From Lingula anatina (lineage: Eukaryota > Animalia > Brachiopoda): a stretch of DNA of 64,000 nt. The position numbers and the translations under genes are program-made. The stretch covers positions 38,728,788 to 38,792,787 of the forward strand of contig CM120640.1 in assembly GCA_051362555.1 (NCBI GenBank), read 5' to 3'. The stretch's first letter is position 1; each line of letters starts with the position of its first letter. Below, one piece after another: positions 17,401 through 56,200 of the stretch. Below the pieces are notes generated by a model. That model was not told where the DNA came from. It saw only the letters and a program-made list of their open reading frames with translations, and made no database searches.

Positions 17401-18738
17401 CTCCCTTATTAAATATTTAAGAAGCAGCAGCACACATAGCTTTCAAATTCATCCTCGACCGAAGTAATAAATTTTATTAACAATTTTTAATTGTTGATTT
17501 TTTTAATTATATACAGTATCTAATATAAATGCCATATATTTGCATTATAAATTTATATCCAGCTTACTCTGCCTCCTCCCCAGCTCTGGGTCTATGGCAT
17601 CGAGTCTCGCTGGCTGTTTTCTTCAGCTGATTTTGAAGCCAGGATTGGGCCTCTTTCTGCAGTTTATCTCTCTCATGCTTGGACATTGCAGGTGGATCCT
17701 AGAAATTCAGGAAACACCCTTAACCAATTCTTAATTAACAGAATGTTGGGAATTTCTTATTGAAGTGCAATATAAAATCAATGCCGTATACTTTTAATAA
17801 CTGTGGTGATTTTACGTATTATAATAATTCAGTTAATTAAATCAATTTGGAATACATAATTATCTACAGTTTAGTATAGTAATTATTTAAAAAAAAACAA
17901 CAACAACCTTGTTCACATCTTTACATCCTATAAATCATAAAAAATAATGATGAAAATAACAACAGAACGATATTTAGTTTTAATCTTTTCATTGGAACCT
18001 AAACCTTAGATGTTACAATGAAAAGATTAATACTAAAATCTACTCCAATTCAAATTTACCAAAACTGCAGCATCTTGTTCATAGTCTGGGAAATGCTTCT
18101 GGACAAATTCTGGTCCAAGCAGTTGAAAAATCATCTCCCTTCTATCAGCATGGTCAATTTGTCTCAGAATTTTGTCTGCAAGCCCTTTATTTAACAGCTC
18201 CTCGACCTGTCAATATTTTTAAAAAAATTATAATTTATGATGTGCTTTCACAGAAACAGTTAACTGGATAAAAGTAAAAGTTAAGGATCTCAAAACAAAA
18301 GTAAAAATTACTTCTCGTGTTTGTCAAAGACAATTATTTTGAAGTTTCCATGACCATCGCTTTTAAAATACATTTCAGTCATACACCTTTCAACATAGTC
18401 TCCAATGCTGACCACTGGATCTATGACAAAAGCCAGTAAAATTGGTGCTGTCGCAAAAATTTGTTCATTTATTCAGTTACTGACAACTGTTTCTGCTTTG
18501 GGCCAGTAGATTCATAGACCCTGGTTCACAGAAGGGTCAGAAATCTTTTTGGTACACACTGCAACACACATCATTTTAATACTTAAAATATTATATTTAC
18601 TTATCACAAAATTGACAAAAACTGTACTATTACCTTCATCCAAGGTGAGTTTGTCAAAAGAGTCTCTTGATAGCTAGAATCCATCCACTGGAGACCAAAT
18701 GGCTTGCCAGTGTCTCTGGCCTCAGATTTGGCATACAT
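2745..18738 (-). CDS. Uncharacterised ~28-exon protein: N-terminal helical region, degenerate Rab-GAP TBC-like domain and C-terminal C2-like beta domains
   Basis: A chain of GT-AG exons with phases matching at the junctions checked, approximately 18634-18738, 18385-18420, 18060-18206, 17568-17698, 17165-17267, 16636-16784, 15629-15842, 15317-15440, 14951-15115, 14465-14640, 14051-14193, 13679-13840, 13300-13415, 12785-12928, 12296-12575, 11871-12057, 11559-11650, 10836-11023, 10390-10628, 10008-10160, 9512-9685, 9134-9299, 8690-8851, 5359-5534, 3932-4048, 3670-3740, 3156-3359 and 2745-2783 (ends ENTLMGAGYGPL*). TBC-like motifs are LPGGLRSYMW, LLNVDAELHDHL and FLRKWIGE..VLLIWDQCFMQGW..LALLLLLKHKFM. 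C2-like strands are SLGWSRIPLF, FTLFIDGVNFIPDN and LGWSVVQLF. Confidence 0.8.
5638..8519 (-). mobile_element. Non-autonomous Helentron-associated element (HINE/DINE-1-like), tandem composite, intronic
   Basis: The 5' end (minus strand) has a 14-bp-arm palindrome tatgtacagacaca-tc-tgtgtctgtacata (8486-8515) and a (GCCGAT)/(GTC)-type microsatellite at ~8413-8470. Internally there are ~160-bp and ~400-bp tandem repeats. The 3' end has subTIR tgtacagaca (5661-5670) and terminal hairpin GGCAGC-AAA-GCTGTC (5643-5657). It is homologous to 57327-58650. Confidence 0.85.
11329..11418. repeat. (TA)n microsatellite, preceded by a poly-A run at ~11253-11288
   Basis: Visible directly; it generates the spurious YIYIYI ORFs in the track. 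Confidence 0.98.
15797..16365 (-). repeat. Tandem array (~104-bp monomer, ~208-bp ABAB dimer) made of a duplicated splice acceptor plus exon start, with an (AAAAT)n tract at ~15846-15899
   Basis: ccccagaatgtaggaggctccc-like motif at ~15800, 15943, 16047, 16151 and 16255. The first copy is the real exon start. Confidence 0.9.
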
Positions 18739-19037: not shown

Positions 19038-20751
19038 TCATTTCTTAGCTATAGCAGGCTGAAGAACAGGCTGTTTGTCTCCATAGCAATGTTTGTTCTT
19101 GGGGTCTCTGTAAGAGTTCTCATGCTGCACACTCTGAAATTTTAACAGAAAAACTTATATAATGAACTGAATAAAAGTTCTATTACCTTCGCTTGCAATG
19201 CAGGGAGTAGCATGGAAATAAATGACAGCAAAAATATATATAATGACACTTCTGCCTATGTTTTAAAAGTACTAATTCAAATGTAAATTGATGATGAAAG
19301 TGTAATTTGATATTATTTGTCTACCATGATTATGATCAACATATAACTGTAATGTAAAATATTTACTTATTAAAATTTAGACAACTGGAATGTCTTCTCT
19401 ATCTCTTTACCTGTGAGTTAGTTCTGCACTTGGTGAGGCAAAGTTCAAAATGGTCTGTGATTGAGGCATAAATTTGACTAAAGCTGGAGTCCACTGCTTC
19501 ACTTAATATCTTCCGTAGTAGCTGTTGCTGGAATCAAAAATCAAAGGCATTAATATAATAAGAATACATCAGACAAATCGCATCCTCCTGTATAATTTCT
19601 TATAGTTGCATATGCTATAAAATAAAGGATATATTTAAAAAAAAGGCCTTCATGAATTCCCAAACTATTGACTGCATCTACTTGTGAAAATATATCATCC
19701 ATTCATTTCTATTAGAGAAACGTGCATCTGATTCAAAAAATTCTAAAATTTCTGATACCATATTTTATTCATAAAAATGCCTTCTCAATAAATACTAATC
19801 CCAAAATGTTTTATACCTTTTCAGGATGCAAGCAACAAGACACGCAGTACTCATAAAGAGCACAGCAGCCCCCCTCAGTGCAGGTTTCACAGGTGTAGTG
19901 TTTTGTAGATCTGCTCAGAGTATCACAACAAGATCCTGGCAACAGGTCAGATCTATCACACACATATCCTGGAACCAATAACAGTTTATACAAAATGATG
20001 ATAATATATTGATATTTTTTGTGTTCAAAGTAACTATAATTACCTCATAAATCTTTGTTGGTTTATGTGCATTTATCAACTACTGAATGAAATGTGTTAT
20101 TCTCAGGTGCAAATTAAAATAAATATTAATCTCAAGATTTGAAAGTTTAATTCTATGTTGTCCACAACTCCTCAAACACGTACAAAAAATTCCTCCTAAA
20201 TATAGCCCTAAAAGTTTTTAACTTAATGAAAGTCATACCTCTGTCATCAGCCACTAAAAGTTTCCCCTGAACTGAATTTCTGCAAGTTTTTATTTTGCTT
20301 GCATTTGCACTTTCAAATTTGGGCTGCCACTTGAACTGTTCAGGAGCTACACGTAGGGGTTTCCTAAGCCGATATTCTTCTTGAGTTGAAAAGTCTTTTG
20401 GATGCTGCAAATAAACCAAGAATAAGTTGAGTATGACAAGCCTTATGAACCGACCATGGCTCGAAGAGGATGAGTAAGTAAGTAAATTGCGTTTTTAGTT
20501 TATTTAAGTATTTGAGAAATTTTTACAAGGTTGATAATACCTCCTTTACACGGGCGCCTTTAGCTTTAGACTAGTACACAGGCTTTCTCAATAGCGCGAA
20601 AACCGACCAAAAATAAAATATTTTATCATCGTAACTTGTTAATGGACGAGCATTTTACCTGCTTGTATATATTAGCCAGGAAATACAGAACCGACAAGCC
20701 AAATACCACAGCTAGAAACCATCTTCTTCGGAATGTTCTTGAGTTAAACAT
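19038..20751 (-). CDS. SPRING1: SREBP pathway regulator in Golgi 1 (SPRING1/C12orf49, UPF0454), 5 coding exons
   Basis: Exons 20659-20751 (MFNSRTFRRRWFLAVVFGLSVLYFLANIYKQ, type II TM), ~20239-20405 (CRNSVQGKLLVADDRG), ~19816-19969 (YVCDRSDLLPGSCC...CCALYEYCVSCCLHPEK), ~19411-19527 (DHFELCLTKCRTNSQ) and 19038-19133 (SVQHENSYRDPKNKHCYG...*). These are signature motifs of the family. Confidence 0.95.
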
Positions 20752-21441: not shown

Positions 21442-22414
21442 ATGGCAGAAGGGAGGCAACCACCAACAAGGACATTTTCATGGAGCTTGGATAACATGCC
21501 TGTCAACATGCCCAGTATAAACGCTCAGGCTAGACTGCCAGGAAATATTGGGAATGTTTTGAGGGAGCTGGTCCCTGGCCTAGAAGGGCGGCCGTCATCA
21601 ACTCCAAACCCGTACCTGCAGGCACAAGCTCAAAGAGCAGCTGATATGTCAAATGAAGCCCCAGCTTCTTCTTTTGTAATAAATATTGGACAAGACGGTC
21701 AGGTTCAGAGAGATGGTATTTTGAATGTTGAACAGTCTGTGCATTCCGCTGAACCACAGTTAATAGGTGGTGGTCAGCTGGAAGGAGGACATTCTCCTGA
21801 ACCCAATAATACTGCTGCTGAAGACGGTGGTCAGGAGGGTCAGCATGGCCATACACATGATACTGACAACAGAATGGACTGGAGACAGGGAAAGAAATGG
21901 CTTGAAAGAAGTCTGATTTTCATTTTGTTGATGCTGTTGAAAGTGACATATAATCATCGCCTGGGTAAGCATTGGCACTGACGGTGCCTATGAATCTATA
22001 GACCAGGGTTTTAGGTATAATTTTTCAATATATAACAATATACAATATATAAACAGAGTCATATAGCTGTGGATGATGTTTTAAATGATCTATGATAACT
22101 GAAAAAAAGCGGAATGAAATTATGATCATCATTATGATCGAATTTGTTTTATTCCCACTAGAAAGAAATTTTGTAGAGAATCTGTCATTTCATATCAGAA
22201 ACATTAAGGAAATTGTAGAATTAAGTGCTTTTATGTAGAATTGTAAAGTACATTGTTTAATTGCACATGCAATATATATTAAGCCCTATATATGATTATT
22301 TAATAAATCTATCATTAATATCTTTACAGGGTTGCTTGTTTTTGTTGGGTTGTTTGGGACATATTACCATGCAAATACAACTGTTAAAAAGCATATTGCA
22401 CAACAAAGGGTAAG

Positions 22415-22462
<48 letters not shown>

Positions 22463-24312
22463 CTTTTCATTAATGAGTCAAAAGAACCATTCTTGGAGGT
22501 TGATCAATTTTTTTTTTTTTTTCTGAAGTACTGTTCATTTGCCTGAAAAAAAAATACACAATGGAAATATATTTGAACTTATTTCAGGATCACCATAATT
22601 CTGCCCGGTCACTGCTGTTGTTGAGTTGGATAGTGATTTTCTTATGTGGAAATATTGCTCTTGTCTACTATGTATTTGAAGATCAGAAGCTTTGGTTAGC
22701 GTAAGTACTTTCCATAAATACTTCAAAATACTAAATTAATTCTTCTTACAACTTTTCATAAATTACATTAAATTACATAAATTATCATTAAAAAGTTAGA
22801 AGTACACACATTAGTTTTTGTCCTAAAATGTTTTTATAATACAATTACTTTTTTCTAAAAATGACATTATTTTTGAAAATTTTCAGTCTAATCTTTAACT
22901 TACCTAAAGTTGGCCGAATAGACTTCTGGACATTACTATGGGTTGTTGCCATCACAGACTACATTGTCAAATTCGCTTCTATCACTTTAAAGGCTCTTAT
23001 AGCCATGCTGCCTAGAACCTTTATACCTTATAAAAGAAGGGTGAGTTATGATCTTATTTCAAAGCAAAGCAGTTCATTGCCTTGTTATAATCATATTATG
23101 TATATATTATACCTTTTGCTTTCTCAAATTAAAAAAAATTATTTATTTATTTGTTTATTATTATTATTTTATTTTATTTTTTTTTTGTAAAATCTTAGGA
23201 TATAACAGTTATTAAAGGCAGTATTTGGTATAATTTCCATGATGCACTTAAGTAATTTAAGCATGAATTTTTTTCAAGGGCAAATATTATATGTTCATAG
23301 AAGAGGTGTCCCAGTGCTATCGTTGTGTTACTCCTATTGTGCCATGGGTTTATTTCCTCAAAGACACAGAACATGGGGGAGAATGGTTCTCTATGTTCCT
23401 GCTCATTGTATATTTTATTGCAAAAGTAAGTCTTGTGATTGACACTGTATATACTGCAGTATTTACAAAACAACTTTCGTTTTATAGTAAACTTTCATCT
23501 GCAATATAAGGTGTATTATTAGTTTTAAGATAATTTCTAATAGTGTCTTTAATTACTAATATAAATCATTATGCTGTATTTTCTCAACGATGATCATTTA
23601 AGGTAAATCTTGTTGTTTTATTCAGGGCATATTGAAAAGCTAAACATTAAGCTGTATGTTTATCTTTATCATTTTTGATTGTAGGCCAACCTCGTGTGGC
23701 AGAAGTCAAAAGATTTATATAAAGCCTGGAAAAAAGTCTGTACAGATGTGGTAAGTTGATGAACAAGTGTATGGTCTTAGGTATTTATTAGAAACCAGTA
23801 TCAGTATATGTGGATGTCTAAACAAGCTATTGCATATATTGGGACTGTGATATGTGTGTGTGTGTGTGTGTGTGTTTGTGTGTGTGTATTTTCTATCTTT
23901 TGAGAAAATGGGCATGTTAAGATATAATTGCTGTAGCACAATGTATATTCTGTCTTTTCCTTGATAATTAATTCAATCAGCTGCTAAGGTTAATTATTGC
24001 AATCCAGTTGGAAGTAGGTGCTTTAGGCTGTGTCACCAACTTCATTCCCATTTTCTGAAGGTGACTTGACAGAATTCAACATATCCTATCCAACCAAATT
24101 AACACTGCTGATGAATTTATGTACTGAACATTTTGTTTTGTTGCAGAATTATGGAATATCCCCAAGTAGAGAGGAGATGTCAGTGGCTGGAGGTGCATGT
24201 CCCATATGTCAAGATGACTACAGGGATCCAGTTATGCTGGCCTGCAAGGTAAGTGTTTCTACTCTGTTTAATGTGTGCTTTTAATTTGGACAGCATGTTT
24301 TTATTTTCCTGT

Positions 24313-24359
<47 letters not shown>

Positions 24360-24712
24360 GTGCATACTTACTGTTGAAGAATATTTAATGTTTAATTGTA
24401 AACTTTGTGCAACTTGTTTATTTTGTACAGTATAGATTTTTGTCAAAGTATTAATCAGTACGCACATGCACACACACAAACAAAATGAAAAATTGAAATA
24501 CATATACACTGACCTACAAAATATTGATAGTTTTCCACCACAGAAATGTATTTAATAATATTTTTCATTTCCTTTTACAGCACATTTTCTGTGAAGACTG
24601 TGTATCAATGTGGTTTGATCGTGAAAGAACATGTCCTATGTGTCGTGCCAACATCGTAGACAACCCTCTCTGGAGGGACGGAACCACTGTTGCTTCCATA
24701 ATATTTTGGTGA
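21442..24712 (+). CDS. RNFT2: RING finger and transmembrane domain-containing E3 ubiquitin ligase (RNFT1/RNFT2 family), 8 coding exons
   Basis: Exons ~21442-21964, 22331-22409, 22588-22700, 22888-23040, 23279-23425, 23685-23750, 24147-24248 and 24581-24712. TM segments include FWTLLWVVAITDYIVKFASITLKAL and GKYYMFIEEVSQCYR. The C3HC4 RING is [39 protein letters not shown], and the C-terminus is WRDGTT. Confidence 0.92.
22417..22459. repeat. (CT)n microsatellite in an RNFT intron
   Basis: Visible directly. Confidence 0.95.
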
Positions 24713-28900: not shown

Positions 28901-29280
28901 TCTTACTTTTGTTTCTTAAGGAAACAGAAGTAATCCTCAACACCTGAGCAATAGATGTGTTTTCTTCCCCATTATTCATCATCTGCTAGCAAAATTTTGG
29001 TCTGTAACTGTTATGTTAGGTTCAAAACAAATGTTCACGCCATTTATTAAAAAATAATCTGGTCATTAAAACTTTTTAACAAGATATTATTTAAAGGTAC
29101 AATTGTGCTAACTTGATTTCATGGAAGTTGCACTGTTATATTGCTGAGAGCTGAAGGAAGTAAATAACCTTTACTTCAAATTATTCTAAAACAAAGTTAA
29201 GTGTTGTTTACTTTATTGAATTATTTATTTAATCATTTTTTATAGTATTTTTGAAGATATATATGTAAGATCCTATAAAA

Positions 29281-29333
29281 ATATAAAAAGCATTAATTTT
29301 ATTATAGTATAATAAAATTAATGCTTTTTATAT
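29281..29333. repeat. Perfect 53-bp AT-rich palindrome (26-bp arms, 1-nt spacer)
   Basis: atataaaaagcattaattttattata-g-tataataaaattaatgctttttatat. Confidence 0.95.
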
Positions 29334-39922: not shown

Positions 39923-40150
39923 AGCCTAGATTACGGGCGCCGTGCGATGAAATTGTCCGTACGATTTTTTTTAATGTAAGGAGCTACGGACTACGCCGAG
40001 TATGTCTACATTACATGGCCTTAAATCCGTACGGTTCCATGCGATTTCGCACGGCCGCCGTCTACCTCCGCTCAGACGCCGTACGAAAAGGGTATTACGG
40101 GCAGTATACGTTGGTCGTACGGGCATCGCATTTCAAATGTAATCTAGGCT
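39923..40150. mobile_element. PIF/Harbinger (Tourist-like) MITE, 228 bp, CpG-rich
   Basis: TIRs agcctagattac / gtaatctaggct plus subterminal gcgatg..ccgtacga / tcgtacgg..catcgc. TTA target-site duplication at 39920-39922 and 40151-40153. Confidence 0.85.
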
Positions 40151-41979
40151 TTACCTAATTGTTCAATTATGGGAGATTAGAATAACCTTGATTATTATGA
40201 AAAAAATTTAAAAGAACAATATTTAGATATGTATCAGAAGGGTTTTCTTCGTGGTCAATTAAATTGTCAAATTTGATTGGTATTTGTTTACGGGATCGAG
40301 CAAGTGAACCGAGTTACAGTCACAAATCTGGGAGGAGAAAAGAGACCGTCAAATCATATAAATTATAAAATATTGGCTTCATGAAAAACATTCAACTTTA
40401 AACTATGGGTTAGAAAAGTTAACCGAACCCTCTTGTTTTTCATTATCAACTGCTATTAATACAAAGGTGACTCTAATTTTCGAATGAAGGTAACAAAATC
40501 AGAATACCAGGCCTATGATCATAGAAAATTGTGTATTGGCACGGCGAATGAAACTCAAATATCGCTGTCACCTTATCACCAGGGTTTATCAGTTCACATA
40601 GGTAACCGTGCTCTCTTCACTCAACCTTTGACGCGCGAAACGAAGAAACAGATAACAAATATCTCATATGATGATGTGTACATGCGACGTTGGAAAATTA
40701 TGTGATGTGATCTTTCAAAAGAGCATTTAGGTATTTCCTGTACTTGTCTGACTCGTTTTACAACCCGTGTGCTTTCACAACCACTCTTGAATATGCGTCA
40801 AATTTCATTATCAATTTCGGTAGGTTTTTGCGTATCGCCAGATGTGTTATGATATAAGTGACATAAGAGGGAAAATATAAACATGATGATGATTCTCTTA
40901 AAACGAAAGGTTGTGTTTATAAGAACCCGCAAACCTCACTCCGTTGTTAGCTAAAGATTTCCCCTTTGCCCGTTTTTAACGCAAATTTTGTATTTTATTT
41001 TGCATTTTTTTCACGGGTTTACATATATTATCTGATGATCGTTACCCGATTTTCATGAAATTTTTGCAATTTTATTCATTAATACCATTAGGCCTATCTA
41101 TAGGCGTGTCTTCGCAAAATCACCCATATCATCACATAAGGGCCTATCTGTGAGTCATAAATGGTGGTTAACATTGTGGAGGTTTCAAACTCCAAAAAAG
41201 GCAACTGATACACTTGAAGTGGATCGTGTCATCCCCTTATTATACCTGTTGGGTAATTTTAGATCCTGCACATTTTTGGCCTTGAACCAAAATTGATAAT
41301 AATGAGCGATCCCACAAAATCGCATTAGGAGAAACCTAGCATTTTTGTTAATCAGAGGACACGCAAAGCTCCGTCATTTATGTGACTTTTTTCTTGTCAT
41401 TCTATATCGGGATCAAGGGAGAGAAATTGAGTAGTATCGGATACACATATCCCGAGCACAGTTGACAGATCGTTAAAACAGTGAAGTTATGCCAAGCGCA
41501 TTCGACACGCCCAGGCACGCGCGAAACGTTACCTACTCGTCATGGACATGCCACATTGTTAACCTTTTCGAACAGTATTAGTCTTGATATAAACCAAGTT
41601 GTTACATTCTGGCTATTTACGACACCCTTATCACGTTTCATTTTCTGATAATTCCTGCTTTAGTTATTTGACAATGTAACTTTGTTAACTGCTGAATGTG
41701 ACAATAGTTTAATCAATTACGACATTTTGTTGTTGGGCGTGGTCTTTCTAGTTCTCCTTGAACTGCTCTTATCAATCTACGCATCAAGCCACGAATCCAC
41801 CCGAACTATTTCAAACATACCGCTCTGAAACGAATTTCTCTTGAACTTTGTTAATCGACAGAAAAAAGAGGATATCGACTTTAGGCGTTAGGCGCTGAAA
41901 TGGAAACTATTCATGTTTCATTTTCATAAGCAGTATAACTTACAAATTCAACATAATTCAAGACAATGTACAACACTTG

Positions 41980-42848
41980 CAAGCATATTAAACAAAAGTT
42001 ACTTTAATAATATATTTAATTTCTTTTACAGTGAAAATAAATATTGCACCAATTTTCAGTTTCGTAAAAAATGAGATCGCGTGAATCTATAAACAATTTT
42101 CATTTTTCTGATAACAGTTTAACATAAAACGAATCATAATTCTGACAAGAAATTATCTTATACTTTGTACAACGAATAAATGCTACGACATGAAAAGTGA
42201 TGCCATAGACTAGACTGTATAGCTATTTACATGCCCATGTGGGTTCGTTAAGTTGCGAAAGCGACTTTACAAAACAAAACACAGGTAAACCAAGTTCGAC
42301 CTAGTTCCGCCTGCACTGGCTTCTAAAGTAAATATTACACAATAAATGAACTTTGGGCTGCACCAAACAAAAGTTTACGTATAAAATTCAGTTCTTATAT
42401 ACTGTCTTCATCCAGTGAGACCAAACGAATAATGAATAGCAATATATATCATGCTATTCGAGATCATTGTGAAAATACTGTCAAGTTCAACAAGGACTAT
42501 TTTGACAGTCTTGCGGCCCTGGGAAATGAACGCACCTCCTCGATAGAAAGTTTATCAAAACGAGCCTCTTGACAAAATGGGCTGTTTGCCAAACGACAAC
42601 ACTATTATTCCAACAGGTGAATTGCGAATTGGTTTTAATGTCGTGACCGGACTGTCAGATCCTTTGACTTGGAGAGACAGCGTAGCACTAATGTCTTTTT
42701 TTCACCACACCACTTGCAATACGTTTTTTTCCCTCGGGATTTTATTGCAGCACTGATTGTCAATTGTCATGTTAGATTAGTTGTAGAAGTGTCCTGTTGA
42801 CAGTGTGCCAACTCGCAGCCTGACCCCATGTCCCCAATTAGAGTTGAC
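41980..42848 (-). other. Putative non-coding exon 2 (3' UTR) of the BH3-only gene
   Basis: Strong acceptor tctatttttgtatttgtag|G at 42849/42848 pairs with the donor at 43701 (853-nt intron). ATTAAA signals at 42015-42020 and 42003-42008 are followed by U/GU-rich sequence. The 3' end is approximate. Confidence 0.5.
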
Positions 42849-43722
42849 CTACAAATACAAAAATAGACGCCATGGTAAAATCTACATGAAACATATTTGA
42901 TTGAGCATTTTCATCTCGGTGCTGGTATTGACATTGAAGAAAACCTGCTCTGTCATGTTTTCTGAAAGCTAGACAAAAAGTCAAGGTCGCCGTTTTCTAC
43001 CATTTATAATCATCAACGTAACAAGTTTCTAACAAAGCGGGGGGTAACGTCAAGACCTTCGTCATTACTTTCCACAAATAAATCCGCGAAACTGAGAGTT
43101 GATTTAATGCAAACATGTGTCATATCATTTACGCTGTCGCGTGGCCCTGGTTCACGGCTCGACGACGTGGTAATGTTTACAAACATTGGCACGTGGCCAG
43201 TGGAAGGGAGATGTGTTATTTTTAGACGAGCGCGCTACGTTTTCTGGTTCATAGATTTGCTGTGAATACCCTTTGTTTAAGGGCTGTGTTTGTCAATTTC
43301 CTATTTTTCTGGAACTCGTTCTGGTGCCATCCAAGTTAGTGCCAGTTCGTCGGGTGTATTGTCATTAAAGAATAGTTCTGTGTCGAGACCACAATGGATT
43401 TATGAAGTACATTGAGTAATAAGTATTGTCATAGTAAAATAGCCCTACACGGACTATGGCAGGATGACAAACCGTTTACCAAGGATGGCCTTATGTTGCT
43501 ATGACAAGGAAACAGACTTACACGCGGGACTTTTTTCATTGTTTTTGGAGCATATTTGTTAGCCTCCCATATATACCTGTTTATTTGTAAGCAGGCCCTG
43601 TCAATTTGCGACAGAACGCCCTCTTTAATATTGACACTTTTTAAATTTTATTAGATACATTTATATTATAAGTAAAAATAACAATATGACATAATTCTTA
43701 CCTGAATTCCAATGGGATTACA

Positions 43723-44004
43723 TCATCTGAACATAAATTGAATATACACCCGTAATATGTGCTTGAACAACACAGTCTTGTCCTCGAGGTAAAAAATACA
43801 ACGCCAGTCAGCGAAGAAATTTGTCCATCGAATTTTATGAGACAGTGTCATCTCTTTATCCAGGTCATCTCCTATTGTACGCAGTCTCTCTGCCACCTCG
43901 CGTAAGTGTTCTTGGAAAGCAGGTGACAATTTATTCTCTCGTTGCCCGTCACTGTCGGAGGTGCTCATAGAGCCTTCTCGGCTGTCTGAATTTTCCCTTG
44001 ACAT
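43723..44004 (-). CDS. 93-aa BH3-only Bcl-2-family protein (candidate HRK/DP5 positional ortholog)
   Basis: ATG 44004 is in good context (caacATG). A disordered S/D/E-rich N-terminus precedes a canonical BH3 LREVAERLRTIGDDLD (L-x3-G-D-x-L at ~43858-43896) and a hydrophobic/basic tail VLFKHILRVYIQFMFR. No BH1/BH2 motif. TATA and CCAAT lie upstream, and a consensus donor CAG|gtaag follows 21 nt after the stop. Confidence 0.8.
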   Translation of the reverse strand: MSRENSDSREGSMSTSDSDGQRENKLSPAFQEHLREVAERLRTIGDDLDKEMTLSHKIRWTNFFADWRCIFYLEDKTVLFKHILRVYIQFMFR

Positions 44005-44119
44005 GTTGAGAAAGAGATATTGAATCAACTATGGAGGTGTATCTAATGGCCTGTGTATCTTCAGTCTATCATAGTCCTATCTCGCTGTCATATTCTTTCA
44101 CCAGTGTGTATAATCTTAT

Positions 44120-44330
44120 TTCTAACCAGAAACATTTGGATCACCTTTGTTTATAGCGCGAGTCCAGACCTGCGAATCTCATTGGTCGAAATAGCGCATG
44201 ACTGCGCGAATACGACTGGCAAAAGTCCAGGGACTCCACGTGCTTTTGTTTGCATTTTGTTAGGGGGTTTTTGCGAGGTCGAGTGAGAATGGGTTCCGCC
44301 ACGAACATTTTCTGGGGGTATTTCCATTTT
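44120..44330 (-). promoter_or_regulatory. TATA-type core and proximal promoter of the BH3-only gene
   Basis: TATAAA at 44150-44155, CCAAT at 44181-44185, E-box CACGTG at 44237-44242 and Rel-like GGGTATTTCC at ~44316-44325, in CpG-rich sequence. Confidence 0.6.
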
Positions 44331-47300
44331 CTTAATAATTTTATTAGCGTTATGCAATCCGTTTTTTTTTTCAAAAGTAAATTTAGCCGTCTCTCGCATC
44401 CCATATAGGTATTGTCAGGTGAAAATGATATCCTTCGTTGTTCTTATCACAAGGTCACACAGCACGATGCACGCACAAGGTAAAGCGAATCATTGTGCCC
44501 CGTTAAGATATATTAAGGTTAACTTTTGATTAGGACAACCACTTATGTATGTTTTGGCGTGCTTTCGTTTCGGATCAAGTAGATTGAAATTGTTTTTAAA
44601 AAATGGGCGGGGTGTGGGGTGGGTATTTTCATATTATGTAGGTTTCCTAACTAGTTTGAATTGGTACACCATTTGTTCAACATCGAAATACTTAGTAAAA
44701 ATCTAAGATTTCCAGGAAAAATAAGATAAAGTTAAGGAATAACTCTGTGGCTCGTTAAATGAAAAGAAATGCAAGTATATTGGGTTAAAATGTTACATAT
44801 CAATTCGTTGTTGTGTTGAGCAAACATACTGTAGTTTTATGTTGAGGACTCTTTTAACGTTGTGTAATACAGGTTTTATCGAACGTTACTTTTATTGAAG
44901 ATATCTAACAGTTCATGGTAAGTTTTCAAAATCTTACATCGCTAAAACTATCCAGCATGCCAAAATGGTTTAGATCAATTCGTTATTGTATTAAGCTAGA
45001 CATATTCTTATTAGATGACTCTAGTTTTTATTGCGAATTGATTAGTATTGAGCGGGTAGCCATGGTCGATATGGCGGGAGTCAGCGTGCAGGGATTACAA
45101 CGTCTTACGGTCGCCCTGACCAAACATAACGACTGTTGCTATTTCCCCGTGGGGCACAAAACGCCTGAAATTTGGACTGCGATACCGAACAGAGTTGAGC
45201 GAGTAATCGAATTTTATCTATTTCATAATTGCTTTTATCTAGTATGAATTTTCTGGAGCCATAGAGAGACTTATTTCTTTGAAATTGAGATATCTGTTCT
45301 TTGTTTCAGTGGTTAAATGTCTACAAAAATCATTTTCGAACTTGGTGCAAATTTGTTTGTCTTCATGTTCTTCGTCTTGTTAGCGTCAGTCTCAGCAGAA
45401 ACATGAAAAACATCCAGCCAGACAAACACAGATCTAGAGGAATTCACTGATACGAATACTTTATTTCCATTTATTAATTAATCTATATATATTTATTCAT
45501 TTATTTATTTGTCATTGTCAAATTAAATGGAATTCATGTACTCTAATGAAGTGCAGTAAGTGCGTAAGTACAAAGATTTAGACAGAAAGAAAGAAAGAAA
45601 AGAAAAGAAAGGGGGAAATGTTGATCGTTCTGTTCCATTTGCACTCGTAATAATATCAAAGCATACGGGTCGTGAACCCTTTATTATTCAAGTCAGGTCG
45701 CCAGTATTGACGCTTCATCAGATGTTGAACTGGCTGAGGCTGTTGTTATTTTCTCGGAAATGTTGAATAGTGCTTGTCTCCCTGCAGCATACATCACACG
45801 AATATAGACGTAAGGACAAAACAAAACATTTTTGTTTTATTCTACCACAATTGAGATAAAGCATCAAGGACCAAATAAAGAAAAAGATTCGAAAATGTTA
45901 CCGAACTCGCTTTGAGCGTGTTAGCGTGCTTGCCGTTTTATTATTAGTGACGTACGTTCGGGAAATGGATTTAAAAGGCGTTTTCGCTTATCGAAATTTA
46001 CCATGTATTTTAAAAAGTGCGAATTAGGATTCTGCGTTTTTGTTTTAAGCCTACATGAAAGGAAGCCTTATTATACTGGGATCAAGTGCCTTTTGGGATA
46101 TTGGGAATTAATGATAAAATGTGGCAAGTTAAGCAAAAATAAAGTGATGTGCGATATAAATGCTCTCATGTAAACCCTATACCAAACTATAAGAGATGAT
46201 GTTATGTAGACGCAATAAGGGATTAATACATAAGCATCCATATGCAAATTAAGATAAAAGGACGTAGAGATAAGCTTATGCACACAAGTGGTGTTAAAAT
46301 TCAAAAAAGCCTCCATATGTTAATGTGTTGGGTGCATGCAAACACGGATTGCGTGTAAATGTAGACGAAATATCAATCTCTAGAAACATTACAATACATC
46401 CCAGAATACTGCGAACGATCGTGGCTTTCCACGTGGGCCAATGCATACATGTCTTGTAAACGTGTCTGAGAGTAAATGCGAGAAATATGAGAATAGAATT
46501 TAAAAGCCAGACACTTTGGCAGAGTTTTTATTCCGTAGCAGTCGAGTAGTTACAGATTGTTTATCATTACTTATTTTATTTATTTTTTTTGTTTGTTTGT
46601 TTTTTGATATTCAGACAGCAGAGTTAAAAAACGACTTTGTCCTATTTATACCAGTAAAACGCTTTACCACACTCTTCGGTCGGGGAAAAAACGTAGGTCT
46701 ACGGGAGTTTTGCTCGGGTGAATCTCAAAATTGTTTGACAAATATTTTTAAGAAATATTTTCTGAAAATGTCCACACGACAAATTTTATGACAATTAGGA
46801 GAAAATAATCGGTCAAACAAAACCATAAAAATGTGAAATAGAACATTTGTTTGATGTGTAGAATTATCAAAAGGAAATCTGCTGTACAAAATGCATGGTT
46901 TTATTTTGGATTTTTTTTTACAATCTTTAGATGCCCATTTTTCTCTTAAAACATCGCTGTCTGAATTTTGACAAATTCGAGATATCTAGCCTTTAGAAAA
47001 AATTCAAATAAAAACTAAATATAATTTTAAAAACAGTTGTTAAGTATGTAAACTTTCACGCCAATCGACACACATAAAAGATCAAGCATAAAGCATGACT
47101 ACTGCAATATCATATGCGCAAAAATATTATCTTTTGAGCAGAAACGTTTGTAATAATGTCAAGACAGCTTTAGATCTATTGAGTAATAATATGTATCATA
47201 AATCAAAGAAAGAAAAAGAAAACTTGTGGAATTCAGAAGAAATGTTCGTTTTCTCTTATTTTAACCGTGTTAATATGTTCATCTATCATACTTGATACGT

Positions 47301-48996
47301 ATAGATTTTTAAAAAATGCGTTGACTAGCTTAAGAAGATAATTTTAAAACTTAGTAAAACTTCCTAACTGCGTATTAAGTTCCATATCATGAATATCAGC
47401 AGGGTTGCAAAAGTCGAGACGAAATTATTTCCACAGACGTTAAAATCAGCGTAAAGATTAAAACAGAAACATTAATGTCCAGAATAAGAAGACCTCATGC
47501 CAGACTTTTTTTTTTATAGACACGAGTAACAAATATTTATGGATAAAGTGGTGATCTGATGTTCGCCTGCTTGGAGATTGCGTGCAGGTTTTTCGGTTTT
47601 TGTTTGTGACAATTAGAATCCACACTTTTAAGGTTGTGTTCGTGTAACACTTCATGGGCACTCAAAACGTTTACTGGAAAAGGGGCATTGGCCGCTGTAG
47701 ATAATGCTTGTTCGCATTTTCAGCAAATTAACTGTTTGCGTTACTAGCGCGGAATGTCACTAAAAGCATGCGGGAATGGGCATTTGAAGCGAAAACGCGA
47801 CCTACGGCGCAAAAAAAAAAAATCAAGACGGTATTTTATCGAATAATATTCACACAATAATACATGTTACATTTAAAAGACTGGCACTTAACCGAAACTC
47901 TAAATTTACAATGAGGTATTTGGATAAATCCCAAATAAAATCGTGCCAGGAAGTTCTTGTACAGATGAAGCCTGTCGACTCTTGGGAGCGCTCCTGGTTG
48001 CAGTGTTGGTTGTCGTTTTACCAAAATTGCCGAATTTCTTCAATAAATCCATTCCAACAATACTTACTCGTTTTCATTCAGGTAAAAAATTATTTTTCAA
48101 AATACAGGATGATCAGAATTGTTTTAATGGCATGTTCTCAATAAATGCAACTATATCATACAGGATATTTATCATTATTTAAACACCACACAAAGTATAT
48201 AAATTTCAAAATACTTAAGATATCCTGTTTAAAGGACAAACTAAGGTTATGATCCTTCGTTATTTTAATAATGCATCTTAAATATTTAACGTGTAACAAT
48301 AGTTAAGTCCAGTACGCACATCATCGTAACTGAGTCACGATGCCCAGCAAACCCTTAAAGGTATTTTAATTATGCCCCACTCCTTTTTTAATGTGCTCTT
48401 TTCTAACTGGTGCCTTTTGCAGTTTTAAAAGATTAACAATGTTATCATAATAATTTGGCACAAGGAAGACATATAGTTTATAAAGTAAATTACCTTGTGA
48501 ATGTCTTACAGTGATTACTTTTTAATCTAATGTGCACAAACACTCACCCACATCTTTTCATTACACATATATATTACATATACATAAATTGGACCCTATT
48601 GATCACAAGAAAAAAATCTTTTATCATTTAAATACAAGCTGGAGAAAACATGTTTTATCCCATAACCTTATTGATTTTTAACCACAGCAGTTGTAACAGG
48701 TACTTTTCCTCCTGCGAACACTATCCACTCAATAACAATAATCTGTGTACATTTGACCTTACCATAAGGACATCTATAAGTATAGGATGTTGTATCAATT
48801 AGTGGTCATGTTACACAGTATGTGACCCCATGCCCCGGCCTCATCTTAATACATAACACATCGCTAGTCCAATTAGCACCTTTTCTGATGGAGAAAAAGC
48901 AGTCTCTAATCTTGTCCTCACGGGGTAAATTGCTTTGACCCCAATATGATCTGACAGTAATTTGAAAACAAGTTATTCTTTTTTAAACAAATTATT

Positions 48997-48999
<3 letters not shown>

Positions 49000-49051
<52 letters not shown>
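49000..49051. repeat. (TA)n microsatellite
   Basis: Visible directly. Confidence 0.97.
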
Positions 49052-49056
<5 letters not shown>

Positions 49057-49341
49057 CCTTTTGGAACTTCTGTGAAAAACAACTGTAGTCATGCAAGGTA
49101 ACTGGCTTATTGTATAACACTATATTTTTACGGACTTGGGTTCTTGTTGATCATCTTGCCTGTTTTTATTTTTCTGAAATAAGCATTACGGACCAAAGTC
49201 CATAGGTGGTAGACCAAAACATTTGACTGATGTTATTTAATCTCTTAGTAAAAAATAATTCTACTTTATCATCCTATTAAGAGACCATGTAAAAGCTCTT
49301 CCATAGTATTGAAGAAATTATTACATAATAATAATAATAAT

Positions 49342-51964
49342 AACTAGAGGATCAGAGAGGCGATACCGCCTCCGGATATTGTACCACCAGCTGGAGTAAG
49401 CGCATTCGTATGGAACCCCCCCCCCCCAAAAAAAAAAGGGACACCATCACCAGTCTTGTGCTTGACAAGCTCTATAAAATGCAATCAACAAAAGTTCTCA
49501 AAATATGCCAAAAAATATGAATCAAAATGGTACAATCAAGCAGATTTTCGAACCGACCTGCATTTTCCTACCATTGATCACTCCTGTGATTCTCTAGACA
49601 AAAGGCCTATTGGTTTTCCTTAAAATGTGTTGTCAGTGGTGCATATATGCTGACAAAAGAGAAAACTTAGGGGCAACACCGGGCACATCTCTGCTAGTTT
49701 TAAAGATATGAGGAGCAAGAAAATATGCAAAGCTCAGTTCATGGTGAAAAAGTAGGTCAAAGTCAATTTCAACATCATAGTATATGAATTTCTATTCAAG
49801 TTCAATAGTAACCATGGGCATTTCTTTTCAAGTTTTGCAGATTTAAAGGCCAGAAAACATGCAAAAAGCAGTTCATCATAAAAATTAGGTCAAAGGTCAA
49901 TTTCAAGGTCACAGTTAGATTGCCAGTGTATTACTTCCTATTCAAGTTCAATAGTAACTATGGACATTTCTCTGCCAGTTTTGGAGATAAAAGGGAATGG
50001 AAATTTGAAAAGTTCAGTTCATGGTAAAAAGTAGGTCAAAGGTTAATTTTAAGGTCACAGTAAATTGCCAGTATATGACTTCCTATCCAAGTTCATTAGT
50101 AACTATGGGCATATCTTTTCCAGTTTTGAAAGTATAAGCATTAAAAAAGTTGCAAAGTTCAGTTTATGGTGTAAAGTAGGTCAAAGGTCAATTTCAAGGT
50201 CACAGATAAATTGCCAGTATGTGACTTCCTATTCAACTTCAATAGTAACTATAGACCTTTCTCTGCCAGTTTTGGAAATAAAAGGGAACCAAAATTTGCA
50301 AAGTTCAATTCATGATGAAAATTAGGTCAAAGGTTAATTTAAAGGTCATTCCTAGATTGCCAGTATATGACTTCCTATTCAAGTTCAATAGTAACTATGG
50401 ACCTATCTCTGCCAGTTTTGGAGATAAAAGGGAACAAAATTTTGCAAAGTTCAGTTCATGGTAAAAAGTAGGTCAAAGGTCAATTTTAAGGTCACAGTAA
50501 ATTGCCAGTATGTGACTTCCTATTCAAGTTCAATAGTAACTATGGACATATCTCTGCCAGTTTTAGAGAGAAAAGGGAACCAAAATTTGCAAAGTTCAGT
50601 TCATGGTGTAAAGTAGGTCAGAGGTCAATTTCAAGGTCACAGTTTGATTGCCAGTATATGACTTCCTATTGAAGTTCAATAGTAACTAATGGCGTATCTC
50701 TGCCAGTTTTCGAGATATAAGGGAGAGAAAATTTGCAAAGTTCAGTTCATGGTGAAAAGTAGGTCAGAGGTCAATTTTAAGGTCACAGTAAGATTGCCAG
50801 TATATGACTTCCTACTCAAGTTCAACAGTAGCTATGGGCGTATCTTTGCCAGTTTAAGAGATATAAGGGCTAGAAAATTTGCAAAGTTCAGTTCATGGTG
50901 AAAATTAGGTCAGAGGTCAATTTCAGGATCACAGTTAGATAGCCAGTACATTACTTCCTATTCAAGTTCAACAGTAACTATGGGCATATCTTTGCCAGTT
51001 TTGGAGATATAAAAATCAGAAAACTTGCTAAGTGCAGTTCATCATGAAAAGTAGGTCAAAGGTCAATTTCAAGGTCAGTTAGATTACAAGTATATGACTT
51101 CCTATTCAAGTTCAATAGTAACTATGGGCGTATCTCTGCTAATTTTGTAGTATTTCACATTTTATTTTCACCACTAAATATTGGATGTTGAACTGTCGAT
51201 ATAGTACAGTGCCTAAGCCGTATCGAAAACAAAAAACGGACACCACCTTCAGGGTTGCGCTTGACAAGCTCTACAAAATGCAAAAAACAACAGGTCTCTG
51301 GCATTAACAGTTCCAGAATTTGAGAGAGTTTTCAGTTTTGGCATCTAATGGCCGCTACTCCCGTGAAAATGCACCGATTGACCCCAAACTCACGAAGATG
51401 AAAGAAAACCCTAAGGGTAACACCTGTCCATAATATTATAAGTAAGATCTGTGAAGTTTCTGAAAATCGGCATAAAATAATAATTTTTTTGCAAAAAATT
51501 CCCATTTTTAGAAAATTTTGGCCCGTTTGACCTTGAAATAAAGGTCAAAGGTCAAATCCAAGGGCATATTTGAAATCTCCACATATGACTTTCGGTCAAC
51601 CATCTGAAGAAATTTTTCACATAATTCCTTCGGTATGGGAGATATTTAGCATTGAATTTTCAAAAATTTTGACAAGGGTGCATTATAACAAGTGCCACGC
51701 CCAGGCCAATGCACCGACTGAGACAAAAAGACCAGGGGGTTCAAGTTGAGATTATATGTGACCAAAATCCAAGAGATGGGGACACAGGTCCTTGCAGTCT
51801 AGGAGGAGAAGCGGTAACGGTGACTTGTATCCCACGCCATCCTGCGGAGCCGCAGGAGCCGCAGGAGCCGCATGAGCCGGCGGAGCCGCAGGAGCCGGCG
51901 GAGCTGTACGAGACGGGTCGGGACTAAAACCATGAGTACCGCCAGCGTACACGCTGGTGGTACT
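49342..51964 (-). mobile_element. Second-family non-autonomous Helentron-associated element (HINE) with an internal satellite array
   Basis: 5' palindrome agtaccgccagcgt-ac-acgctggtggtact (51935-51964), (GGAGCCGCA)n microsatellite at ~51845-51903, matching 3' subTIR gtaccaccagc (49381-49391) and terminal hairpin GAGGCG-ATAC-CGCCTC (49357-49372). It ends CTAGTT on the minus strand and is flanked on both sides by (TAA)n. Confidence 0.87.
49680..51150. repeat. Tandem array of ~10 monomers of ~145-146 bp inside the HINE
   Basis: aggtca(a/g)aggt(c/t)aattt recurs at ~49887, 50033, 50178, 50324, 50470, 50615, 50761, 50907 and 51053. Confidence 0.95.
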
Positions 51965-53221
51965 AATAATAATAATAATAATGCACAATCAGTTAATAGT
52001 GCTAATGAAAGTTAAATAAAATGCTAACGCACATGTAAAATAGCTCTATCTGTTCCTATCAGTAGGTGACGTTTGTCAAAAAAAAAATCAATGTTTGGCG
52101 GAAAAGAGCTTCATATAAAGAAGACAAGACCAGATAATGAGACATCAAGGTGTACCACTGTGTCATGCCAACTTGTTATAAATATCACAAAGTTGACAAT
52201 CATCACTGCAGATAAATCCATTACTTCACTTTTTGCCAAAAGGTTAACCTTTACAAACCAGGCTTGAATAAAGACCACTCGCTGAATTCCCTTGTGGATA
52301 TTTCTAACATAATTCTAGGTGAGATGATATTATTTCTGCCGCAAAACAAACCACTAACGTGTGACAAAAGGTTAAATGGATTTTCCAGGCTGCAGAAATT
52401 TGAGCCAAGCCAGCCTGGAAGCACAGCTTGAAGTGAAGACATGCAGAAATAGAAGAACCAGAATAACCGTGAAAGGTTTTTGTAGGTCCTAAGGTCCAAG
52501 CTTTGATGGTTGTTGACCATTATTTCAAACTAAGTTCATCCACACACACTTGTGCAGGGAAAGTTGCACATGTGCCAGCATATCTGCAGCAACACAAAGA
52601 TTTGGACTAGGTCTTGTGCATTGACAAGGCAAATATAAAATCTTTTCGGTGCTTTTAATTTTTCTCCCTTTTTGCCTCACAAGTTTGTCTATGCTCTTAG
52701 AGAAATGTTTTTTCTTTTTCTTTACTTAGTTTGAAAAACTATTGATAGCTCTTTAAAAATTAGTTAAAATTACAATTATATGATCTCCTCTCCTAATTTC
52801 AGACCTTCTCATTTAAAAAAAAATAAATTTGAAAAAAATTCTCTCATTCCTTACTTGCAATACAAGTCGCTCTTTCTTACTAAGGGGTATTTTCTGTACA
52901 TTTACATATCCTGAGAAGCTACAGATTATTTCCTGATTCAGACCTTAAAAATGATAAAACCCCTCATATTCAAGTACCTGATGCCAATATTTCCTCAAAA
53001 ATGTACAGGAAGACATGGTGGTCTAAATGACTGGCCAGTCGTTTGAAACTAAATCATTTAATTTGAAATGATAAAAAACACCAAATCCAAGTGAAGGGAA
53101 GGGCTGCACAATGATTCGTGAGTGGGAGAAAATTGCTTATCTTTTCATGGAAAATTATTTTTGGTGAGGAAAATCCCAGACAGGACACCTTTAATTTAGT
53201 TTCTTTGAAATATAAAACATT

Positions 53222-56200
53222 CTAATTAGCAAAGATGTCTCCCATGGGAATCCAGATATTCTTGCACTGGATTGCATGGTACAGGAACTCTTCACCTTGA
53301 CCTTGTTCCCGGTCAGCCCAGTTTCTGGACAGCCCATAGTTGACCCAGGTGCGCTTGACATTGACTGCAGACGTGTACTCCACAAACTTCGACCCCTCCG
53401 CAGAGCCAAAATACCACACCGACTGGATGTCTTGGTGCTCAGTGAGGTACTTGGTGAGATGATCGCGGTCTCCGGTGATGATATTAACTACCCCACCTGG
53501 CAGGTCAGATGTATCAAACACCTGAGGATTAGGAAAATAACAGTCATTTTGTTATAAATAAAAAAATGCATTACTCACCACGATCTTACCACAATTACCT
53601 TGGAGAAATGGGGTTAACAGTGTGTGTTAGCATGTATCACAGCATGCCCCAGTGTAAAATTGTCTCCCGCAGCAAGCATGAAACAATAAGGACTGCATGT
53701 GTCATACTGGTCACCACAGAGCATGGTACTTGACACCTAAGTCCAATAATATTCTTATTCACCTGATAAAGGTTACGATGAGGTGACAGAGATATTTGAG
53801 TCTAAAATCACAAAATGCACAGCGGAAACCAGCAAAGATTGACTTAAATACGCAATTTTAAAAACCACACAAGCTTTTCCCTGATTCAGGTTACACGCTG
53901 TATGCTGGATGCCAATCTCACGCCAGCTCACCTGATACAAGTCCAGGGCTGACAGGGGATACTTCTCGCTTGGCAAAATAACAATGCAATTTCCACGGAT
54001 AACTGCTGGAGCAAACAAGGACACAAAACCCAGCAGAGGATACTCATCAGGGCAAGCTATGCCAATGACACCCACTGGTTCATGAATCTTTACTGTGCAA
54101 CCATACAGGGTGGTTTCCTGAAATATATCATAATTTATACATTAGAAAAAAAACAGGGGGGAGGCTAATAACAAAATGCATTACTTCTCATTTGTTCAGT
54201 TTTTTACAATATTTATCAATCAAGTAAAAAGAAAAAAAAACTTATTCTAAACAACTATTCTTTTCTGCAACAATATTTGCTGCCTAAAAAACTGATTCAC
54301 TTCTTAGAACCACATCTTTATGACAATAACCTCATCTCCCTGTGAAACAGTGAAAGAAGGTATTAGACAGAATGCACTACCTGCACAGTGCCTCCATACT
54401 TGTCACAATAGGCGCCCCAGTGGAACAGCCTCTGTATGGCCAGGTCCACCTCCTGCAGCCCCGCCTCCAGTTTCTGACCTGTCATACTGCAGATCCTCTG
54501 TGCCACCTCCTGGCGACGTAGCTCCAAGTTTTCTGCCATGTAGTAGACTATCTGGGCCCGGTTGTGTGCTGCTCGCTTGCCCCATCTATTATATATCAAA
54601 ATCAACCCAATAAAATGTCTTGTGGATTTTTTCCAACTATCTGCTTCTGACATAACCATCAACTGCATTTCTTATGTTAAAAAAAGAAGAATGCATAAAT
54701 ACAAAATAAAACAAGTTTGAAATATGGTACAAGTTTAAAATATGGTTTAACATTACTGAGCTAGCTTAAGCTGGCAAACATACACCCCACTGATTGCATC
54801 AAGACTGAAAAGATAACAACCAATATCAGTCTAAACCCTGATAAATGATCCTGTAAAACAGGGAAAAGTATTTTAGCAAAAATCAAGGTGGCAATACAGG
54901 AGAATGTCTGTTTAAATTGCTTAAAAGGGTGTAACTTTTGAAGCATTGATTCCACAATTAAAAGGCCAATTTACAAAGTCAACCTGTATGTCAGCTTTCC
55001 TGATGTCTCTACATGCCTACAGCCCGTCTCTACTTGCTGGAAAATAACACTCTGAACTGTCAAATTTATTTTAAGACCAAACACTTCACTGCCGGCCAGT
55101 CCAGGAGTTGGTTTAGGAATTAACATTAAATTTAAAATGTCAAAATTATGTGACTTTGCAGAAAATCTCACTGACAGTGCCTGCTCATAAAAATAAATAC
55201 ATTGTCAAACAAGTATAAATTGTCAAACACTAAAAAAATGTCACCAAATACTGAAATATAGAATGCTAATCTGCATGTCAAACTCAAAGATTTTAGTCCT
55301 CACAAACATACTACTGTGAGCTGAAATGATGAACATCTTCCAAATTTAGCACTGCATACAAAGAAACAACTCTAAATGAACAGAGAAACGTACCCTGGTG
55401 CTGCTTTATGTGCCACTTCCACTGCATTCCTGATGTCTTTCCTGTTCCCCTCACCCACATGAGCCAGCACTTTACCATTAGGACCCATTACTGGCCTGGC
55501 ATAGGGAGCATCAGGGCGCTTCTGGGCACCACCATAGTACATCTTATAGGTGCGGTCAATACTGAAAATTAAATTGTTCAGAGCCTGTCAAAAAATATCC
55601 ATCTATGTGCATGTGTTCATGGTAAATACTGCAAGATATCATTAATTTTTTAAATACTGATATTGGAAGAATTTTTTAAATTGAGATTAGATATGTTATC
55701 AGTAGTTCCCATATTTCAACACTATTGATAAAAATTTTTATTTTTTTTGTGTGAAATTTCTGAATAACAAAATGCGAATGAAAAGGCTAATTATAACCTT
55801 GTTATTGATTTCTAGATATCAGCATGAAAAGCTTGATGCCAAAAGGATGTCAACAATTTTTTTCAAATAGGTTCAAACTGAACTGGTCACAAGAGAAAAT
55901 CATTAATATCTTGGTTCTTTGTAATTTAAAGTGATCTAATCATTAAGTGTAAAAACTATCTGACTAGCTCTTACAATTCCTCTTTTAATTTTAAATTTCA
56001 CATTTTGTCTGCATCTTCCTGTCATTAACATAGGTTCTCCAATGTACTCATGTTCGTACGCTTGTTCTCAAATACACGCAAACGAAACCTGGTGCATTTT
56101 ACAGATATAAATAGGGTGGTAATCCATTAACAGATTAAATATCTTTTGTGGTTTTTATCATTGTTACCTTGCAGCACTTTTGTATCTATCAGCATGTAAT

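What the first reader, a model, noticed from the sequence alone, without database searches (positions are those of the whole stretch)
43723..44004. Unannotated-looking BH3-only gene at the syntenic position of vertebrate HRK (Harakiri/DP5)
Seen in sequence: a 93-aa ORF whose only recognisable motif is a textbook BH3 (EVAERLRTIGDDLDKEM; compare HRK TAARLKALGDELHQR and BAX LSECLKRIGDELD), with a disordered N-terminus and a hydrophobic/basic C-tail. It is the next recognisable protein-coding gene after RNFT, on the opposite strand. Established: human 12q24.22 has SPRING1(-), RNFT2(+), HRK(-); HRK is a 91-aa BH3-only protein usually treated as vertebrate-restricted; BH3-only proteins are too short and divergent for BLAST orthology. 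Inference: this is an invertebrate HRK ortholog found by position, which would push this apoptosis initiator back toward the bilaterian ancestor.
Basis: partly seen in the sequence, partly recalled or inferred. Interest (0 to 1): 0.95.

Follow-up and report, generated by a model that had tools for sequence, protein, structure and literature searches.

The report
Brachiopod death gene at HRK's address
The lamp shell Lingula has a small, spliced, apparently unannotated gene whose protein carries a cell-death (BH3) motif and is predicted to trigger apoptosis; it sits beside the same two genes and has the same unusual two-exon layout as human HRK, so it is likely, though not yet shown, a relative by descent that would date this gene to the ancestor of most animals.

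Summary
The 93-aa ORF is real. The window is Lingula anatina (RNFT exon 98% identical to RefSeq). The gene is transcribed on the minus strand at low level and spliced: an 853-nt GT-AG intron starts 21 nt after the stop (9 junction reads, 4 of 4 runs). One unnamed homologue (96 aa, 43% identity, E 2e-12) keeps the BH3 and the aromatic block after it. Order SPRING1(-), RNFT(+), BH3 gene(-) is confirmed, with no Pfam-supported gene between. New support for the HRK idea: human and mouse HRK have the same layout, whole ORF in exon 1 and a 3'UTR intron 56 or 67 nt after the stop. Against: the sequence has no HRK signature (BAX, PXT1, BID, BIM score as well or better), there is no transmembrane helix, the other flank is ALDH rather than FBXW8, and no intermediate lineage could be tested. 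Binding and killing are untested. Verdict: BH3-only protein about 0.85; positional HRK orthologue about 0.6. Earlier scan notes (unchecked) report HRK in a shark and a ray; none reports an invertebrate copy.

The parts
43723..44004 (-). 93-aa ORF (P0001), whole coding sequence in exon 1; ATG with A at -3
   Evidence: homologue P0004
43861..43896 (-). BH3 core, residues 37-48 (V37, L41, I44, G45, D46, L48) in a predicted helix 28-57
43786..43827 (-). Aromatic block W60-L73, conserved in P0004; predicted helix 61-71
43726..43773 (-). C-terminal amphipathic helix V78-R93; not a transmembrane segment
43702..44120 (-). Exon 1: about 120 nt leader, ORF, 21 nt of 3'UTR; upper end approximate
   Evidence: bin depths of 2 reads in run X2; donor position
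42849..43701 (-). 853-nt GT-AG intron in the 3'UTR, 21 nt after the stop
   Evidence: 9 junction reads in 4 of 4 runs
42000..42848 (-). Exon 2, non-coding 3'UTR; ATTAAA at 42020 and 42008; lower end approximate
   Evidence: X8 coverage to the 42001-42100 bin
44150..44242 (-). Promoter-like motifs: TATAAA 44155-44150, CCAAT 44185, CACGTG 44242-44237 (motif matches only)
44061..44091 (-). Two tiny upstream ORFs in the leader (4 and 3 codons, ATG at 44091 and 44072)
19814..20494 (-). SPRING1 exons (PF10218), head-to-head with RNFT
21442..24709 (+). RNFT (RNFT2-like) coding exons; 19.0 kb from the last exon to the BH3 ORF's stop

Best explanation
This is a spliced two-exon Lingula gene for a 93-residue BH3-bearing protein that is predicted to act as a BH3-only death trigger and that likely descends from the same ancestral SPRING1-RNFT-linked gene as vertebrate HRK. 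Shown: the ORF, minus-strand transcription, the 3'UTR intron, a conserved homologue, the neighbours. Inferred mechanism: the floppy protein folds residues 28-57 into one helix, which inserts V37, L41, I44 and L48 into the groove of Lingula pro-survival BCL-2/MCL-1-like proteins, with D46 making the usual salt bridge; this frees BAK/BAX. The aromatic block and amphipathic tail would lay it on a membrane surface rather than span it. Low resting mRNA, a TATA promoter and two tiny uORFs would suit a stress-induced gene (untested). Descent: position and exon layout were kept while the sequence drifted past recognition.
For: Junction reads in 4 of 4 runs; leader reads over the ATG. Homologue P0004: E 2.4e-12 among 1.84 billion representatives; identity 15 of 30 in the BH3 helix, 14 of 36 after it, 6 of 27 in the N-terminus. 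PDB profile search returns BAX, PXT1 and BID BH3 segments, all weak (E 0.06-1.3). ESM Atlas neighbours with a family are PXT1, BIM, BMF, NOXA, BIK for both proteins (0.76-0.88, leads only). No BH1/BH2 exon nearby. SPRING1(-), RNFT(+), BH3(-) order. Rat dp5: two exons, ORF in exon 1, rest of 3'UTR in exon 2 (PMC2685101). Human HRK principal transcript 2 exons, intron 56 nt after the stop; mouse 67 nt (PMC7310861 supplement 3). No human principal transcript of BIM, BID, BAD, BIK, BMF, PUMA, NOXA or PXT1 is listed with a 3'UTR intron there. Size and BH3 position alike: HRK BH3 33-44 of 91, here 37-48 of 93. Lingula has BAK, BAX, BOK, MCL1 and BCL-2-like genes (PMC11463336).
Against: No Harakiri hit in Pfam (only BID, E 0.05 and 0.009, below cut-off), none among PDB hits or Atlas rows. 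The 12-residue core does not discriminate: BIM 35, HRK 34, BAX 31, BAK 31. HRK has a membrane-spanning helix W69-L91 (PMC3121775); this protein has none. The far neighbour is an aldehyde dehydrogenase, not FBXW8. The intron is 21 nt after the stop, not 56-67. Mouse Bik also appears in the table as a 2-exon principal transcript with a 3'UTR intron at 470 nt. Only one homologue, of unknown species and context. Hrk is described as absent in fish (PMC8998228). The finding was picked because of the match, so chance estimates are optimistic.
Confidence: 0.6

Rival explanations
1. It is a true BH3-only protein but unrelated to HRK: a lineage-limited gene, born de novo or from a BAX-type or BIM/BMF/PXT1-type BH3 exon, that came to lie next to RNFT independently.
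For: Best PDB matches are BAX BH3 segments, extending beyond the core into the following residues. Atlas neighbours are PXT1/BIM/BMF/BIK/NOXA, not Harakiri. Only one homologue in 1.84 billion representatives. BH3-only proteins are described as polyphyletic (PMC11463336), and cnidarian ones lack introns (PMC8998228 legend), so a single coding exon is not special.
Against: Needs three coincidences: the neighbour, the orientation, and a 3'UTR intron behind a single coding exon. My rough estimate is 1 in 1,000 for the neighbour (2 x 16 flanking genes / 34,105 models), halved for orientation, times about 0.09 for any 3'UTR intron (1,728 human genes). The SPRING1-RNFT pair shows that this region does keep ancient order.
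Confidence: 0.27
2. The protein is real but its BH3-like helix serves another job (membrane, autophagy or adaptor binding) and does not start apoptosis.
For: BH3 patterns have little predictive value and several putative BH3 motifs proved non-functional (PMC9171138). All PDB and Pfam BH3 matches are weak and mixed with unrelated amphipathic helices. The block after the BH3 is nearly as conserved as the BH3. Lingula lacks APAF-1.
Against: V37, A38, L41, I44, G45, D46 are invariant between the two homologues; no other domain is present; layout is that of BH3-only proteins.
Confidence: 0.1
3. A non-coding transcript with a chance ORF, or a stray exon of a larger BCL-2 family gene.
For: Very few reads (0-20 per run); no ribosome or peptide data; absent from the 15-billion-protein collection; a few same-strand reads at 44.3-45.0 kb are unexplained.
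Against: Full-length homologue of similar length at 43% identity; the stop precedes the splice donor; the ORF is the longest in the spliced RNA (93 aa, next independent 42 aa); the one listed allele in the ORF is synonymous; no BH1/BH2 exon nearby.
Confidence: 0.03

Closest known systems
Vertebrate HRK / harakiri / DP5
   Same: Next to the SPRING1-RNFT pair; two exons with the whole ORF in exon 1 and a 3'UTR intron; 91-93 aa; single BH3 at residues about 33-48; disordered N-terminus; TATA and E-box upstream.
   Different: No detectable sequence similarity beyond the generic core; no Arg-rich linker or membrane-spanning helix; 3'UTR about 0.9 kb versus 5 kb; intron 853 nt versus 18.9 kb in rat; no ATF site found in the promoter; other neighbour is ALDH, not FBXW8.
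PXT1, BIM, BMF, BIK, NOXA (vertebrate BH3-only proteins)
   Same: Nearest named families in language-model features; PXT1 BH3 peptide among PDB hits; BIM core scores highest.
   Different: No Pfam family passes; human principal transcripts are not listed with a 3'UTR intron; their genomic neighbours differ (recalled).
BAX BH3 helix
   Same: Best PDB alignments, including residues just after the core.
   Different: No BH1/BH2 or BCL-2 fold; 93 aa ending at its own stop.
Invertebrate BH3-only candidates (Hydra, schistosome, EGL-1, echinoderm; a Lingula entry in Fig. 5 of PMC8998228)
   Same: Short disordered proteins with one BH3.
   Different: None is tied to a vertebrate gene by position in what I read. 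The Lingula entry could not be seen (figure not held.masx files unreadable); it came from NCBI BLAST, while P0001 is not in the collection that holds NCBI Lingula proteins, so it is probably another protein.

Membership tests
BH3-only proteins | BH3 core with four hydrophobic positions, small residue, Leu and Gly-Asp | tested here: met
   V37 A38 L41 I44 G45 D46 L48; first six invariant in P0004
BH3-only proteins | No BH1/BH2, no BCL-2 fold | tested here: met
   stop before donor, no Bcl-2 Pfam hit in scanned frames, no credible BH1/BH2 motif
BH3-only proteins | Intrinsic disorder outside the BH3 helix | tested here: inconclusive
   mean pLDDT 57, pTM 0.32 from a 2-sequence alignment; polar N-terminus
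BH3-only proteins | Binds pro-survival BCL-2 proteins through the BH3 and promotes death | not testable with these tools
HRK orthologues | Position after SPRING1-RNFT2, opposite strand to RNFT | tested here: met
   vertebrate linkage; human strands recalled
HRK orthologues | FBXW8 on the other side | tested here: not met
   next gene is an aldehyde dehydrogenase
HRK orthologues | Two exons, ORF in exon 1, intron in 3'UTR | tested here: met
   21 nt versus 56/67 nt after the stop; a rare upstream exon is not excluded
HRK orthologues | Match to the Harakiri sequence family | tested here: not met
   no Harakiri row in Pfam, PDB or Atlas outputs; filters drop weak matches
HRK orthologues | C-terminal transmembrane helix | tested here: not met
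   best 19-residue hydropathy 0.69 (P0001), 1.28 (P0004); amphipathic instead
HRK orthologues | Promoter ATF site (TGATGTAA in rat) | tested here: not met
   no ATF/CRE match upstream within 41.5-46 kb; the 8-mer lies on the stop codon and occurs 6 times in the window
HRK orthologues | Continuous presence at this locus in intermediate lineages | tested here: inconclusive
   34 metagenome RNFT-pattern loci, 4 with 4+ kb and 2 with 10 kb downstream, none reaching the 19 kb needed here; no credible BH3 ORF

The most novel reading that the evidence does not exclude
HRK is not a tetrapod invention: a BH3-only gene with a 3'UTR intron already sat behind SPRING1-RNFT in the protostome-deuterostome ancestor and survives unannotated in brachiopods. 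At least one mammalian BH3-only gene would then be inherited rather than convergent, and gene neighbourhood plus exon layout becomes a way to trace the rest of this 'untraceable' family.
Probability: 0.55. Interest if true: 0.78.

Novelty: new member of a known kind. Interest (0 to 1): 0.66.

Why it matters
Reviews read here treat BH3-only proteins as polyphyletic or possibly convergent, find them hard to detect in lophotrochozoans, and list Hrk as absent from fish (PMC8998228, PMC11463336). A positional and structural counterpart of HRK in a brachiopod gives a cheap, sharp test of descent versus convergence: look behind RNFT in other phyla. Even if the HRK link fails, it is a new conserved BH3-only candidate in an animal that has BAK, BAX and MCL1 but no APAF-1.

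Tried and rejected
Word-indexed homologue search with P0001: no candidate; with the two-sequence profile: only P0004, 1 of 5 candidates; longer and shorter proteins were not searched with this query. Metagenome scan with the profile: 150 pattern matches, none confirmed. Synteny test with 34 RNFT-pattern loci: underpowered; two look like non-RNFT RING genes; no SPRING1 or BH3-protein tblastn hit. No indexed RNA holder listed; raw-read runs were laid instead; X5 gave 0 reads. No whole genome held, so Lingula paralogues were not counted. Fold search not run on a pLDDT 57 model. TGATGTAA on the stop codon rejected as chance. Truncated multi-domain BCL-2 gene rejected. Aouacheria 2013 is not held, so it is cited only through PMC11463336. 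Literature searches for RNFT2+HRK+synteny (0 papers), BH3-only+invertebrate+synteny+HRK (2), BH3-only+Lingula (6) showed no report of this gene; subscription journals are not covered.

Full report
Observation. A loose and a strict BH3 pattern each match once in all six frames of the window, both in this ORF. Simulated sequence of the 23.5-kb region gave the strict pattern in 0 of 300 runs and the loose one inside a 50+ aa ATG ORF in 2 of 300; the patterns were written knowing the motif.

Organism and neighbours. The first RNFT exon matches one protein, 98% identical, named RNFT2-like of Lingula anatina; its 438 residues map in 8 pieces to 21442-24709 (+). SPRING1 exons lie at 19814-20494 (-), head to head with RNFT. 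Between RNFT's end and the BH3 ORF (19.0 kb) every stop-free frame of 45+ aa was scanned: three weak hits, all under curated cut-offs. On the far side lies an aldehyde dehydrogenase, best matching 767-aa chains 6MVR/6MVU (that these are ALDH16 is recalled).

Transcript. In 4 of 4 runs reads skip 853 nt (3, 1, 2 and 3 reads); the stranded-looking runs and the GT-AG ends put the RNA on the minus strand. The intron is 43701-42849 and starts 21 nt after the stop. Four further runs gave 4, 6, 0 and 20 reads and no listed joint. In X2 the bins 43901-44200 hold 302 bases, which fits two whole 151-nt reads running from about 44120 across the ATG; TATAAA lies at 44155. X8 covers exon 2 down to about 42030, near ATTAAA at 42020/42008. 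So the gene reads as two exons with the whole ORF in exon 1; the start site rests on two reads. A few same-strand reads at 44.3-45.0 kb leave an upstream start or exon open; splicing into the AG at 43997 would leave an 81-aa form from M13 with the BH3 intact. The one allele listed in the ORF is synonymous (F63).

Protein. The exact sequence is not among 15 billion proteins and the word-indexed search found nothing. HMMER over 1.84 billion representatives found one homologue, P0004 (96 aa, 43%, E 2.4e-12), from Logan only, unnamed. Identity is 6 of 27 in the N-terminus, 15 of 30 in the BH3 helix, 14 of 36 after it. AlphaFold on the pair is low-confidence (mean pLDDT 57): coil to residue 27, helices 28-57, 61-71, 76-91. 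No transmembrane segment; the tail is amphipathic. Pfam gives only BID below cut-off. The PDB profile lists 29 sequences, mostly BAX, plus PXT1, BID and unrelated helices, none better than E 0.02. The Atlas's named neighbours are PXT1, BIM, BMF, NOXA, BIK, under 0.9; its top rows are unnamed 72-99 aa clusters, mostly chordate where known, which could not be fetched.

The HRK question. Rat dp5 has two exons with the ORF and a little 3'UTR in exon 1 (PMC2685101 passages). The 3'UTR-intron table of PMC7310861 lists human HRK principal1 with 2 exons and 56 nt stop-to-intron, mouse 67 nt; BIM, BID, BAD, PXT1 and BAX appear only with non-principal isoforms, BMF, PUMA and NOXA not at all, while mouse Bik appears as a 2-exon principal row at 470 nt. 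1,728 human genes have any such intron; 2 of about 100 zebrafish rows seen were two-exon (first part only). Against: among 13 human cores from PMC9171138, BIM scores 35, HRK 34, BAX and BAK 31, so the core is uninformative; HRK's membrane-spanning helix (PMC3121775 passages) is missing; no promoter ATF site; FBXW8 is not the other neighbour; Hrk is reported absent in fish (PMC8998228 section 2.4). Two unchecked notes of this scan report HRK in a shark and a ray, which would narrow the gap but are not support. My own synteny test failed for length: of 34 metagenome loci, 4 had 4+ kb and 2 had 10 kb downstream, with no credible BH3 ORF.

Mechanism (inferred from established BH3 biology). The BH3 helix would dock in the groove of a pro-survival protein and release BAK/BAX. 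Lingula has BAK, BAX, BOK, MCL1 and BCL-2-like genes but no APAF-1 (PMC11463336 passages). A Lingula MCL-1 homologue was one of ten studied with a PUMA BH3 peptide (PMC10927572 passages; its own KD was not seen). No binding was predicted or measured here.

Verdict. Real, expressed, conserved BH3-only candidate (about 0.85). It fails the sequence and transmembrane tests for HRK membership, so I do not file it as HRK; descent from the same locus is the best reading (about 0.6) on position plus exon layout. Papers were seen as passages or named sections only; PMC4595640 passages gave the gene count and its supplement had no RNFT entry. The unreadable supplement and Fig. 5 of PMC8998228 may bear on whether this protein was listed before.

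Noticed in passing
window 1-1314 (-): Single long frame with a Core-2/I-branching glycosyltransferase domain (PF02485, E 5e-44), cut by the window edge.
   Followed up: no
window about 8600-18700 (-): Probable multi-exon gene tail-side of SPRING1 (frames at 10376-10687 and 14462-14692) with no Pfam or PDB match; identity unknown.
   Followed up: partly
window 60507-63998 (-): 1138-aa ORF with PIF1 helicase plus endonuclease domains, a Helitron/Helentron-type transposon (type recalled).
   Followed up: no
window 48200-54700 (-): Aldehyde dehydrogenase exons at 53225-54671; a well-expressed, polymorphic minus-strand stretch at 48.2-49.0 kb is probably its 3'UTR.
   Followed up: partly
window 44341-45007 (-) and 42901-43100 (+): A few same-strand reads upstream of the promoter (X1, X3) and two opposite-strand reads in the intron (X3); unexplained.
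   Followed up: no
window 43175-43195: FOXO-type GTAAACA, CCAAT and CACGTG clustered within 25 nt in the intron; rat dp5 has a conserved regulatory intron region. Motif matches only.
   Followed up: no
window 40116-40153: About 37 nt shared with many other transcripts (loose ends on both sides in three runs): a short repeat.
   Followed up: no
window 29275-29339: AT-rich 32-nt inverted repeat, 94% complementary, 1-nt loop.
   Followed up: no
ESM Atlas rows 1-3: Unnamed clusters of 72, 75 and 99 aa proteins, mostly chordate where known, are the nearest in features; they may be unannotated BH3-only proteins.
   Followed up: no
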